Part shown: positions 6,001 to 9,000 of the stretch, one piece after another
Numbering within the stretch: position 1 is the stretch's first letter
Layout of the letters: each line of letters opens with the position of its first letter
From: a virus
Taxonomy: Duplodnaviria; Heunggongvirae; Uroviricota; Caudoviricetes
Reading direction: 5' to 3' (one strand)
IMG/VR virus record: IMGVR_UViG_2695420523_000013
DNA length: 27,206 nt
Program-made: the position numbers

Positions 6001-9000
6001 ACCCGCTGATGGCGCTGTTCAATGCGGTCTCCCTGATGTCCCTTAACCCGGAACCGAAAAAGAAAGAATATGCGGTTTTTTTCATATAACCCTGTTCACA
6101 CTGTAACCATCACGAACCGCTCCGGCGGTTTTTTTATTTTCAGGAGGCTGATGTGACTCTTAAACGGGCCTGTTCCCTGCTGACGGTGAAATCCTTCAGT
6201 GAGGATGAACGAGTGATCACCGGGATTGCGTCAACGCCTTCTCCGGATCGGGATGGTGACATCCTGGAGCCGGAGGGCGCGGAGTTTGGCAGTGCGATCC
6301 CGTTTCTCTGGCAGCATGACCATTCCCGCCCGGTGGGGCAGTGTACGGTGCGCCGGGTCAGCGAAGGGCTGGAAATCACGGCAACACTGGTGAAGCCCGT
6401 ACCGGATATGCCGTCGCAACTGGCTGCCCGGCTGGATGAGGTCTGGGCGGCCATTAAGACCGGGCTGGTCAGGGGGCTGTCCGTGGGCTTCCGTCCCCAT
6501 GAATACACCTTTCTGGACGGAGGCGGACTGCATTTTCTGCGCTGGGAACTGATGGAGGTGTCTGCCGTCACCGTGCCCGCGAATGCGGAATGCACCATCC
6601 GGACCATTAAATCTTACGACCGCCCGTTTTCTGCCGCGTCCGGCAACCGGAAACCGGTGGTGAAAATCGCATCTTCTGCCGGCGCTTCGGCACAGTCAAT
6701 AACCTCTTTTCATAAGGAAAAGTCAGCAATGAATACTGGTGAACAGATTAAAAGTTTTGAAAACAAGCGTGCGGCGCTGGCAGCCTCCCTTGAGGAGATC
6801 ATGAACAAAGCCGCAGAGGAAGGCCGCACACTGGATGTGGAAGAGGAAGAGCACTACGACAACACCGCAGCGGAAATCCGTCAGGTGGATGCGCACCTGA
6901 AGCGTCTGCGTGAACTGGAAACCAGTAAGGCCGCCACGGCACAGCCGGTGAAACAGGCCGGTAACGGGAATGTGGCCACGGTGGCTTCAGCGCCGGTGAT
7001 CCGTGTTGAGCAGAAACTGGAGAAGGGGATTGGTTTCGCCCGCTTTGCCAAATCACTGGCCGCGGCTAAAGGTGTCCGCTCTGAAGCCCTGGAAGTGGCC
7101 CGTCGTCAGTATCCGGATGACAGCCGTCTGCATCATGTCCTGAAATCGGCGGTGGGGGCAGGGACCACCACGGACCCACAGTGGGCAGGCAGCCTGTCTG
7201 AATATCAGGAATATGCGCAGGACTTTATTGATTACCTGCGTCCGCAGACCATTATCGGGCGATTTGGTCAGGGCGGGATCCCTGCACTTCGTCAGGTGCC
7301 GTTCAATATCCGCGTGCATGCCCAGGTGTCCGGCGGTGCTGCCGGCTGGGTGGGGGAGGGTAAGGCCAGACCCCTGACGAAGTTTGATTTTGAGTCCATC
7401 ACCTTCAGTCATGCGAAGGTGTCGGCCATTGCGGTACTGACGGAAGAGCTGATCCGTTTTTCCAGTCCGGCAGCTGATGCGCTGGTCCGTAATGCGCTGG
7501 CAGAAGCGGTGGTGGCGCGTCTGGACACAGACTTTGTGGACCCGAAAAAAGCCGCAGTGGCAGATGTCTCCCCGGCGTCCATCACCCATGATGTGAAGGG
7601 CACGGCATCAACCGGTAACCCGGATGCGGATGCAGAGGCGGCGTTTGGCCAGTTTGTGGCAGCAAACCTGCAGCCCACCGGTGCGGTCTGGCTGATGTCC
7701 AGCACCAATGCCCTGGCACTGTCCATGCGTAAAAATGCGCTGGGTCAGAAGGAATACCCGGACATGACCCTGCTGGGTGGCTCCTTCCAGGGGCTGCCGG
7801 TGATTGTCTCCCAGTACGTGGGTGACCAGCTGGTGCTGGTGAATGCCCCGGATATTTATCTGGCGGATGACGGCGGTGTGGCAGTGGATATGTCCCGTGA
7901 AGCGTCACTGGAAATGCAGTCTGAGCCGGGCGGCGACAGCACCACACCGTCGCCGGTGGAGCTGGTTTCCATGTTCCAGACCGGCAGCGTGGCCATCCGT
8001 GCGGAGCGCTGGATCAACTGGCGTCGTCGCCGTACTGCGGCGGTGGCTGTGATCACCGGTGTGAACTACGGCAGTGCGTCCGGCGGCTGAGTCTGATGAG
8101 GAGGGCGGGAGGTGAGAGCGTCCCGCAGTAACTGATGGCAAAAATCCGATATCTGCAGGGTACACATGATGCCCGGCCCGGGGATATCCGGGATGTCGCA
8201 CAGCCGTGTGCGGAGGTGCTGGTTCGCCTGAGGAAGGCGGAGTACATCACAGCGCGACGTCCGGCGGGTCAGAAAAAGAAACATGATGCGGAGCATAGCG
8301 AATGTGGAACTTTTTGCGACGAACCCGAAAAAACCAGAAATCAGGACGTGATGTAAAAGAGGTGGGCTGGACCAGCCTGTTTCAGGCGGTGGCTGAGCCC
8401 TTTGCCGGCGCCTGGCAGCAGGGGGTGAAAGCCGATCCGGAAAGTGTCCTCTCCTTTCATGCGGTGTTTTCTTGCATTTCGCTGATATCCCAGGATATCG
8501 CCAAAATGCGGCTGCGCCTGATGCAGACGGATACACAGGGGATCCGCCGTGAAAAACGGCAGGGGGATATTGCCCGTCTCTGTCGTCGTCCCAATGCACA
8601 GCAGAATCGTATCCAGTTTTTTGAACTGTGGCTGAACGCCAAACTGCGTCACGGCAATACGGTGGTGCTGAAAATCCGTAACTCCCGGGGGCAGATCAAA
8701 GAACTGCGTATTCTGGACTGGAGCCGGGTTGAACCTCTGGTGGCGGATGACGGCGAGGTGTTCTACCGCATCACGCCGGACCGGAACTGCGGGATCACGG
8801 AGGCGGTGACGGTGCCTGCCCGGGAAGTGATCCACGACCGGTTTAACTGTTTTTTTCATCCGCTTATAGGGTTGCCGCCGGTGTATGCCGCCGGGCTGGC
8901 GGCCACGCAGGGGCATCATATTCAGGAAAATTCGACGTCTTTTTTCAGAAATGGCGGCAGGCCGTCCGGGGTGATTGAGATCCCCGGCAGTATAACGGAA

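What the first reader, a model, noticed from the sequence alone, without database searches (positions are those of the whole stretch)
6153..8090. Single ORF fusing prohead protease and major capsid protein, with a plausible internal in-frame start for the capsid portion
The 645-aa product combines a protease-like N-terminal domain, a coiled-coil delta-like segment and an HK97-fold capsid domain. An in-frame ATG at 6729 is preceded by a good AAGGAAA RBS at an 8-nt spacing, so both a full-length fusion and a capsid-only polypeptide could be made. That would set protease-to-capsid stoichiometry by relative initiation rates. Gene order here (terminase, protease-capsid, portal) also differs from the lambda/HK97 order.
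Basis: partly seen in the sequence, partly recalled or inferred. Interest (0 to 1): 0.45.

Follow-up and report, generated by a model that had tools for sequence, protein, structure and literature searches.

The report
Protease–capsid gene with conserved internal start
This E. coli prophage head gene fuses the capsid-maturation protease to the major capsid protein, and its relatives almost all keep a ribosome-binding site and start codon at the junction, so it probably makes both a protease-carrying and a plain capsid subunit.

Summary
ORF 6153-8090 (GTG start, 645 aa) joins a Peptidase_S78 prohead protease, a disordered linker, a helical delta-like segment and an HK97-family capsid domain. 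ATG 6729 follows TAAGGAAA (6713-6720).

The fusion and the gene order (terminase, fusion, small ORF, portal) are already known. The same gene sits in 1252 of 5426 complete E. coli genomes, in Stx phages, and as a distant homolog in Pseudomonas phage PAJU2, where it is annotated as a fusion.

In the window alone the internal site is not statistically exceptional. The comparative evidence is strong:
- In 38 fused lineages (70% identity or less), all keep ATG (34) or GTG (4) at the junction.
- Their Shine-Dalgarno pairing energy has a median of -8.75 kcal/mol, against -2.4 for 501 other in-frame ATGs. It is at least as strong as at the 5' start.
- The encoded linker peptide differs in every lineage.
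- 129 of 144 fused representatives (50% clusters) keep the Met.
- Split relatives start their capsid gene exactly there.

Best reading: a nested two-product gene giving a 69-kDa protease-capsid carrier and a 48-kDa capsid precursor, analogous to lambda C/Nu3 and herpesvirus UL26/UL26.5. No protein-level evidence exists, and I found no report of this internal start.

The parts
6114..6140 (+). Terminator-like hairpin plus T-run between the TerL stop codon (6089) and the capsid gene. It lies just upstream of the long form's ribosome-binding site.
   Evidence: 7-bp stem, then TTTTATTTTC. The same hairpin sequence is read through in the upstream frame of relatives L003 and L005. Function was not tested.
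6142..6147 (+). Shine-Dalgarno AGGAGG for the long (full-length) product, 5 nt before GTG 6153.
   Evidence: Duplex dG with the 16S 3' end is -10.3 kcal/mol.
6153..8090 (+). Long ORF of 645 aa (69.1 kDa): protease, linker, delta-like segment and HK97-fold major capsid protein. GTG start codon.
   Evidence: N-terminal residues are conserved from residue 1 in homologs.
6294..6608 (+). Peptidase_S78 (HK97 gp4-type prohead serine protease) core, aa 48-152. The predicted beta-rich domain spans about aa 1-138.
   Evidence: PF04586, 34.8 bits; TIGR01543, 46 bits, below the 59 cut-off. His55 in PFLWQHD and Ser110 in GLSVGF are invariant in A1, and the corresponding His53 and Ser107 are invariant in A2.
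6567..6728 (+). Hypervariable, predicted-disordered linker (aa 139-192) between the protease and the delta-like segment.
   Evidence: pLDDT about 25. Searches show variable sequence and length with indels. Met frequency in the linker of 144 representatives is 0.37%.
6713..6720 (+). Internal Shine-Dalgarno TAAGGAAA, encoded as His-Lys-Glu-Lys. It is 8 nt before ATG 6729.
   Evidence: dG -6.2. TTTTCATAAGGAAAAG is invariant in 93 E. coli-type copies while 4 of the 6 spacer bases vary. A purine-rich peak at -14 to -8 is present in all lineages.
6729..8090 (+). Nested in-frame ORF of 453 aa (48.3 kDa): delta-like segment plus major capsid protein. This is the predicted short product.
   Evidence: TIGR01554 model position 3 aligns with residue 12 of this product. 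Capsid-only homologs P0200, P0234, P0255 and P0260 begin at this position.
6735..6935 (+). Delta-like helical hairpin (aa 195-261), the presumed scaffolding domain. A disordered stretch (aa 262-286) follows, where maturation cleavage is expected.
   Evidence: helices 195-223 and 229-261, pLDDT 76-79. The cleavage position is inferred by analogy with HK97 gp5 and was not tested.
7011..8087 (+). HK97-fold capsid body (about aa 287-645).
   Evidence: PF05065 aa 386-635; TIGR01554 to aa 584. The only PDB sequence match is weak: 9d9w major capsid protein, E 0.004.

Best explanation
The gene is a nested two-product head gene.

Ribosomes starting at GTG 6153 make a 69-kDa protease-linker-delta-capsid polypeptide. 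Ribosomes starting at the internal site (TAAGGAAA, then ATG 6729) make a 48-kDa delta-capsid polypeptide, equivalent to an ordinary HK97-type capsid precursor.

Both products carry the same delta and capsid parts, so they co-assemble into the procapsid shell. The long form puts the protease inside the shell by covalent attachment. This replaces the separate targeting that a free HK97-type protease needs. The protease (His55/Ser110) then removes itself, the linker and the delta segments, and the shell matures.

The relative strength of the two initiation sites sets how many of the roughly 415 subunits carry a protease.

Shown here: the anatomy, the intact catalytic motifs, and strong conservation of the internal initiation signals. 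Inferred: that both products are made, that they co-assemble, and that their ratio matters.
For: 1. Homology of the start. In split relatives the capsid gene begins at the codon homologous to M193. Examples are Pelagibacterium L009 (TGA, a 35-nt spacer with AAGAGG, then ATG MSKFAEQI), Moraxella phage Mcat5 (ATGA overlap) and L141 (TAAATG). Capsid-only representatives also start there.

2. Conservation at the DNA level. Of 173 loci, 167 are fused. Clustered at 70% identity they give 38 lineages, and all 38 have a start codon at the junction (34 ATG, 4 GTG). Median Shine-Dalgarno duplex dG is -8.75 kcal/mol, against -2.4 for 501 other in-frame ATGs (Mann-Whitney p = 5.6e-21). The junction ranks in the top 0.5% of codon positions within its own gene.

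3. Strength relative to the 5' start. The internal site (median dG -8.0) is at least as strong as the 5' start of the same genes (median -6.5).

4. Selection acts on nucleotides, not on a peptide motif. The 38 upstream heptapeptides are all different. The GG core falls in all three codon phases (28/3/7). Spacing is 5-11 nt with a mode of 8.

5. Protein-level breadth. Of 144 fused representatives from 50%-identity clusters, 129 have Met within 8 residues before the conserved Glu, 101 of them at offset 4-5. Thirteen have Val. Met frequency in the preceding linker is 0.37%.

6. Features of an initiation region. G+C dips at the junction in 38 of 39 lineages (36% against 61% in the window), and local folding is weak.

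7. Population data. The Shine-Dalgarno site and ATG are invariant in 93 E. coli-type copies while the spacer and linker vary.

8. Control. The conserved Met at +21/+25 inside the delta segment has only a background Shine-Dalgarno score, median -3.3.

9. No alternative source. No other scaffold or protease gene is present in the head module.
Against: - There is no protein, ribosome-profiling or genetic evidence for two products from this gene or any homolog. None was found in the held literature.
- In the window itself the internal Shine-Dalgarno site is only moderate (-6.2) and is not the best in the ORF.
- Most of the Shine-Dalgarno strength is carried by the choice of amino acids (Lys/Gln-Glu-Gly, Lys-Gly). 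Synonymous resampling still gives -6.4 against -8.7 observed, and only 2 of 38 genes are individually significant. A protein-level reason for part of the motif therefore cannot be fully excluded.
- My rough volume estimate, about 13 MDa in a T=7 procapsid (not a tool result), suggests a shell made only of the long form is not sterically impossible. A second product is therefore not strictly required.
- The lineages are related, so the counts are not fully independent.
Confidence: 0.75

Rival explanations
1. Only one polypeptide is made, starting at 6153. The junction Shine-Dalgarno site and ATG are a neutral relic of the capsid gene's own start, left over from a gene fusion. Every capsid subunit carries a protease that cuts itself off.
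For: The site is homologous to the capsid start of split relatives, so a relic is the natural null hypothesis. A shell built only of the long form is not obviously impossible (my estimate). Annotation pipelines call a single 645-aa product.
Against: A neutral relic should decay along with the linker, which has turned over completely in sequence and length. Instead the start codon survives in 38 of 38 lineages, and Met or Val in 142 of 144 representatives. The Shine-Dalgarno site remains as strong as at real gene starts. The whole Enterobacterales clade (71-98% identity, many genera) is fused and keeps it. All four non-ATG cases are GTG, the other efficient start codon.
Confidence: 0.12
2. The conserved junction features serve the protein or its translation rather than initiation. 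Possibilities are a protease cleavage or recognition site (x-Glu-Gly-x-x-Met), an N-cap for the first delta helix, or a Shine-Dalgarno-like pause that lets the protease domain fold before the capsid part emerges.
For: In 28 of 38 lineages the motif sits in the same codon phase, giving Lys/Gln/Glu-Glu-Gly or Lys-Gly peptides. Synonymous resampling keeps much of the Shine-Dalgarno score.
Against: No peptide consensus exists: all 38 heptapeptides differ, and they include KEK, KGN, TRS, NRR, QER and TEA. The purine core occurs in three codon phases. A pause site would not need an ATG or GTG 5-11 nt downstream. Capsid-only homologs begin exactly at this Met. The local G+C dip and weak folding are typical of initiation regions.
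Confidence: 0.08
3. The fusion is not real. A sequencing error or a pseudogene has joined two separate genes.
For: Some database entries are split or truncated, for example an IS3 insertion in strain B1_2 (H33) and truncated products P0007-P0011.
Against: The intact 1938-nt ORF is found in 1249 complete E. coli genomes and 92 phage records at 95-99% identity. Fused homologs of 630-680 aa dominate the top 150 representatives across Proteobacteria.
Confidence: 0.01

Closest known systems
HK97 gp4 (prohead protease, Peptidase S78) and gp5 (major capsid protein with N-terminal delta domain)
   Same: Same protease family and same capsid family. A helical delta-like segment precedes the capsid fold. 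No separate scaffolding protein gene is present. The predicted short product, delta plus capsid, corresponds to gp5.
   Different: In HK97 these are two separate genes in the order portal, protease, capsid, and the free protease is targeted to the shell by its own C-terminus (my knowledge: Duda et al. 2013). Here there is one ORF placed before the portal gene, and the protease is covalently attached to the N-terminus of the delta segment.
Salmonella phage Gifsy-2 tripartite capsid gene (STM1034.3n; Effantin et al. 2010, Virology 402:355; cited in PMC12315714, not readable here)
   Same: One ORF encodes protease, a scaffold-like middle and an HK97-fold capsid protein in a lambdoid prophage.
   Different: Gifsy-2 uses a ClpP-type protease and a roughly 200-aa lambda-like scaffold region. 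Its gene follows the portal gene. There is no detectable sequence relationship to the window's protease part. Whether Gifsy-2 uses internal starts was not tested. It has in-frame ATGs with strong Shine-Dalgarno sites at codons 186 and 221.
Phage lambda C / Nu3 nested genes (my knowledge)
   Same: An internal in-frame start inside a head-protease gene gives a shorter, more abundant assembly protein that shares the long product's C-terminus.
   Different: In lambda the shared part is a scaffold (Nu3), and the capsid protein E is a separate gene. Here the shared part is the capsid protein itself with its built-in scaffold.
Herpesvirus UL26 / UL26.5 (protease-scaffold fusion plus nested scaffold)
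   Same: The logic proposed here is the same. A minor protease-carrying form co-assembles with a roughly 10-fold more abundant nested form, which delivers a sub-stoichiometric dose of protease into the procapsid (PMC11565193).
   Different: Herpesviruses use a separate promoter and transcript for the short form, and the carrier is the scaffold, not the capsid protein. The protease fold family also differs.
Pseudomonas phage PAJU2 ORF003 and the long-tailed Stx-phage head genes (BP-4795, 1717, YYZ-2008)
   Same: These are true homologs (PAJU2 48% identity, Stx phages 95-98%). They share the fused architecture and the gene order TerS, TerL, fusion, small ORF(s), portal. PAJU2 also has CAGGAGGGCAACGAC ATG at the junction.
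   Different: None in kind; the window's gene belongs to this group. Their records annotate a single fused product, and no nested start is annotated.
Actinobacteriophage 'major capsid and protease fusion protein' and NCBIfam NF045541 (prohead protease/major capsid protein fusion)
   Same: The same idea of a protease-capsid fusion is recognised in annotation vocabularies.
   Different: The window protein scores 54 bits against NF045541, whose cut-off is 525, so it is a different fusion lineage. Internal starts in those lineages were not examined.

Membership tests
Peptidase S78 / HK97 gp4-type prohead protease | Significant match to the family profile | tested here: met
   PF04586 scores 34.8 bits against a cut-off of 21, over aa 48-152. 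The stricter NCBIfam equivalog TIGR01543 scores 46.3 against a cut-off of 59, which is not reached.
Peptidase S78 / HK97 gp4-type prohead protease | Conserved catalytic His and Ser | tested here: met
   His55 (PFLWQHD) and Ser110 (GLSVGF) are invariant in 13 close homologs. The corresponding His53 and Ser107 are invariant in 31 distant homologs. Their assignment as catalytic residues rests on my knowledge of HK97 gp4 (His65/Ser114). Activity was not tested.
HK97-family major capsid protein with delta domain | Match to the capsid profiles above their cut-offs | tested here: met
   PF05065 scores 53.5 bits (cut-off 24.2). TIGR01554 scores 80.4 bits (cut-off 27.5) over aa 204-584.
HK97-family major capsid protein with delta domain | N-terminal helical scaffolding (delta) segment that the protease removes | tested here: inconclusive
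   Two long helices at aa 195-223 and 229-261 (pLDDT 76-79) are followed by a disordered stretch. The model as a whole is poor (pLDDT 40.6). Cleavage cannot be tested with these tools.
Nested in-frame head-assembly genes (lambda C/Nu3, herpesvirus UL26/UL26.5 type) | Internal in-frame start codon with its own ribosome-binding site | tested here: met
   TAAGGAAA at 6713-6720, 8 nt of spacer, then ATG 6729.
Nested in-frame head-assembly genes (lambda C/Nu3, herpesvirus UL26/UL26.5 type) | Initiation signals conserved beyond what the encoded protein requires | tested here: met
   All 38 lineages keep a start codon. Median Shine-Dalgarno dG is -8.75 against -2.4 for other in-frame ATGs. The junction ranks in the top 0.5% of its gene. 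The core falls in all three codon phases, and the upstream heptapeptides all differ. 129 of 144 representatives keep the Met.
Nested in-frame head-assembly genes (lambda C/Nu3, herpesvirus UL26/UL26.5 type) | Both polypeptides are made, with the short one in excess | not testable with these tools
   This needs proteomics, N-terminal sequencing or initiation-site ribosome profiling. No such data were found in the held literature.
Gifsy-2-type tripartite capsid gene | ClpP-type protease at the N-terminus, gene placed after the portal gene | tested here: not met
   The window's protease is S78, not ClpP. The gene precedes the portal gene. In Gifsy-2 the order is portal and then the fusion.
NCBIfam NF045541 prohead protease/major capsid protein fusion | Score at or above the curated cut-off | tested here: not met
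   54.1 bits against a cut-off of 525.

The most novel reading that the evidence does not exclude
Across the S78-HK97 protease-capsid fusions of Proteobacterial phages and prophages (thousands of genes), the 'fused' gene is in fact always a two-product gene. Most capsid protein comes from the conserved internal start. The full-length product is a minority 'carrier' subunit that uses the coat protein itself to bring the protease into the shell. This would be a bacterial-virus counterpart of herpesvirus UL26/UL26.5. Gain or loss of a single stop codon just upstream of an unchanged capsid start would then switch a lineage between the split and fused states.
Probability: 0.6. Interest if true: 0.6.

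Novelty: new variant of a known kind. Interest (0 to 1): 0.5.

Why it matters
How a phage gets the right, small number of protease molecules into each procapsid is a standing question in capsid assembly. It is most puzzling for natural protease-capsid fusions, where a 1:1 ratio seems built in.

A conserved internal start would resolve that puzzle. Translation initiation rates would set the dose, and the coat protein itself would act as the delivery vehicle.

Three further consequences follow:
- Annotation. Thousands of database entries list one 640-680-aa 'major capsid protein' where two products are likely.
- Evolution. Split and fused arrangements could interconvert by one stop codon without touching capsid expression.
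- Testability. The gene sits in inducible Stx and other lambdoid prophages of E. coli, so the prediction can be tested with standard genetics and mass spectrometry.

Tried and rejected
These still included the key distant fused case (Chelatococcus) and split case (Pelagibacterium).
- The first viral-contig scan returned only near-identical E. coli copies. They were useful only for the population check. A second scan with a distant first sequence (A2) gave the diverse set.
- The AF2 model built on the shallow alignment A1 was poor (mean pLDDT 40.6). I ran no fold search and used the model only for the disorder/helix pattern around the junction.
- Sequence search of the PDB found only one weak capsid match (9d9w, E 0.004), so no close solved structure exists.
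- The synonymous-codon resampling test was weak gene by gene: 2 of 38 genes at 0.05 or below, mean -6.4 against -8.7 observed. I do not rely on it.
- ATG 6801, which has a stronger Shine-Dalgarno site in the window, was rejected as an alternative start. The corresponding Met is conserved, but its Shine-Dalgarno score in relatives is at background.
- Literature. Effantin 2010 (Gifsy-2), Liu & Mushegian 2004, Duda & Teschke 2019 and Suhanovsky & Teschke 2015 are not held. The PAJU2 paper was not found. Searches for an internal start in protease-capsid fusions returned nothing relevant. The CBASS and CapRel papers that surfaced were off-topic.
- A second scaffold or protease gene in the module was looked for and not found.
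Full report
**What is there**

The window is the late region of a long-tailed lambdoid prophage of E. coli. The genes run as follows:
- HNH endonuclease, 3223-3684
- small terminase, 3868-4431
- large terminase, 4428-6089
- the ORF in question, 6153-8090
- a 73-aa ORF, 8135-8356
- portal, 8302-9666
- a 353-aa ORF, followed by connector and tail genes

The ORF starts with GTG, 5 nt after AGGAGG, and encodes 645 aa (69.1 kDa). Its matches are Peptidase_S78 at aa 48-152, the HK97-family capsid profiles at aa 204-635, and PHROG 617 over its full length. 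His55 and Ser110, the presumed catalytic pair, are invariant in close and distant homologs.

A low-confidence AF2 model (pLDDT 40.6) still separates four regions:
- a beta-rich N-terminal domain
- a disordered stretch at aa 138-193
- two long helices at 195-261, with pLDDT 76-79
- the capsid part

ATG 6729 is codon 193. It is preceded by TAAGGAAA at 6713-6720 with an 8-nt spacer.

**How common it is**

The same 1938-nt ORF occurs at 95-99% identity in several places:
- 92 phage records, including Stx1a, Stx2a and Stx2c phages, BP-4795, 1717 and YYZ-2008
- 1249 of 5426 complete E. coli genomes, with up to 7 copies per genome, where it is annotated as a single 'phage major capsid protein'

Fused homologs of 630-680 aa are abundant across Proteobacteria: 2459 hits, and 4442 cluster representatives below 1e-10. 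Pseudomonas phage PAJU2 ORF003 (48% identity) is annotated 'prohead protease fused capsid protein' and has the same gene order. The fusion and the gene order are therefore known features of this head-module type, not discoveries.

A different, ClpP-based fusion is known from Gifsy-2.

**Is the internal start more than chance?**

In the window alone it is not clearly so. Fourteen in-frame start codons have a Shine-Dalgarno pairing energy of -5.5 kcal/mol or better. ATG 6729 scores -6.2, and ATG 6801 scores -8.1. The only local oddity is that 6700-6759 is the G+C minimum of the whole ORF, 31.7% against about 60%.

The decisive evidence is comparative. I collected 173 loci and located the junction in each. 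Of these, 167 are fused and 6 are split.

In the split loci the capsid gene starts at the codon homologous to M193:
- Pelagibacterium: TGA, a 35-nt spacer containing AAGAGG, then ATG encoding MSKFAEQI
- Moraxella phage Mcat5: an ATGA overlap
- L141: TAAATG

Clustering the fused proteins at 70% identity gives 38 lineages. The results for these lineages are:
- Every lineage has a start codon at the junction: 34 ATG and 4 GTG.
- The upstream Shine-Dalgarno energy has a median of -8.75 kcal/mol. The 501 other in-frame ATGs have a median of -2.4 (p = 5.6e-21).
- Within each gene the junction ranks in the top 0.5% of all codon positions.
- The internal site (median -8.0) is at least as strong as the true 5' start of the same genes (median -6.5).

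The encoded peptide is not conserved. All 38 upstream heptapeptides differ, and the GG core falls in all three codon phases. Spacing is 5-11 nt with a mode of 8. A purine peak at -14 to -8 stands out from low-information flanks. G+C drops at the junction in 38 of 39 lineages, and local folding is weak.

Among 93 E. coli-type copies the Shine-Dalgarno site and the ATG never vary, while 4 of the 6 spacer bases do.

At the protein level I used 144 fused representatives from 50%-identity clusters:
- 129 have Met within 8 residues before the conserved Glu of the delta segment, 101 of them at offset 4-5.
- 13 have Val in that stretch.
- Met frequency in the preceding linker is 0.37%.
- The four capsid-only representatives begin with that Met.

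As a control, the conserved Met 21-25 residues further in has only a background Shine-Dalgarno score, median -3.3.

**Mechanism**

The best-supported reading is a nested gene with two products. The long product is protease-linker-delta-capsid, and the short product is delta-capsid. Both share the parts that build the shell, so they should co-assemble. The long form would carry the protease inside, and the protease would then remove itself and the delta segments.

The ratio of the two initiation events would set the protease dose. In the E. coli version the long form starts with GTG and the short form with ATG. This fits a minority long form, but that point is only suggestive.

The logic matches two known systems:
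- lambda C/Nu3 (my knowledge)
- herpesvirus UL26/UL26.5, where the nested scaffold transcript is about 10-fold more abundant than the protease fusion (PMC11565193)

The difference here is that the carrier is the capsid protein itself.

What is shown is the anatomy and the selection on the initiation signals. What is inferred is that both products exist, that they co-assemble, and that the dose matters.

**Rivals**

Three alternatives were weighed:
- A neutral relic of the fusion. This is unlikely, because the surrounding linker has turned over completely while the signals persist at full strength in every lineage.
- A protein-level or pausing role. This is weakened by the lack of any peptide consensus, the three codon phases, the requirement for ATG or GTG at the right spacing, and the capsid-only homologs that start there. 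It is not excluded entirely, because much of the Shine-Dalgarno strength is encoded through amino-acid choice.
- An assembly artefact. This is excluded.

**Novelty and limits**

I found no paper in the held library describing an internal start in these fusions. However, the Gifsy-2 paper, the PAJU2 paper and the main review papers could not be read, so prior mention cannot be ruled out.

I rate the finding as a new variant of a known kind: nested in-frame expression in head-assembly genes, applied here to the capsid protein. Interest is moderate. A specialist would find it a natural but undocumented solution to the stoichiometry problem of protease-capsid fusions, and it is directly testable in inducible E. 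coli prophages.

Noticed in passing
window 6114-6140: A terminator-like hairpin (GAACCGCTCCGGCGGTTT) plus a T-run sits between the large-terminase stop codon and the capsid gene's ribosome-binding site. The same hairpin appears upstream of the gene in the Enterobacter and Kosakonia relatives L003 and L005. It could be a transcript-stabilising or processing element, or an attenuator read through under Q antitermination.
   Followed up: partly
window 8135-8356: A 73-aa ORF (phrog_829, function unknown) lies between the capsid and portal genes and overlaps the portal start (8302) by 55 nt. Small ORFs occupy the same position in PAJU2 (ORF004/005) and Mcat5.
   Followed up: partly
window 9663-10724: The 353-aa ORF after the portal gene is labelled 'portal protein' in PHROGs (phrog_1289 and phrog_2271; the latter is an 859-aa profile, which suggests fusion to the portal in some phages). 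It has no Pfam portal domain, only sub-threshold hits including CBM_5_12. Its counterpart in PPyecE_EH1910 is longer (1224 nt). Its role in the head is unclear.
   Followed up: no
window 3223-3684: An HNH endonuclease gene (phrog_589) lies just upstream of the terminase genes, as is typical of HK97-like cos packaging modules.
   Followed up: no
L173 (Gifsy-2, NC_010393) 23026 and 23131: The Gifsy-2 ClpP-scaffold-capsid gene has in-frame ATGs with strong Shine-Dalgarno sites at codon 186 (AAAGGAG, -8.7) and codon 221 (GAGGAG, -8.8), near the protease/scaffold boundary. This may be a lambda Nu3-like nested start. Conservation was not tested.
   Followed up: no
window 6801: In-frame ATG (Met217) preceded by GAGGAG (-8.1 kcal/mol), stronger than the site at 6729. 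The Met is conserved in relatives but the Shine-Dalgarno site is not (median -3.3), so this looks like a coincidence.
   Followed up: yes
hits H33 (NZ_CP074764.1) and P0001, P0123, P0133: In strain B1_2 an IS3 element splits the gene into 'prohead protease' and 'major capsid protein' pieces. Some database proteins of about 1080-1094 aa carry an extra N-terminal part of roughly 440 aa (a terminase domain in P0001). These may be further fusions or frameshift artefacts.
   Followed up: no
L007 (Arsenophonus endosymbiont) 3980-5928: The homolog in this insect endosymbiont has a disrupted protease part (the frame breaks after 72 codons) but an intact capsid part that is still preceded by AAAAGGAAAGTCAG ATG. 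It is a decaying prophage copy.
   Followed up: no
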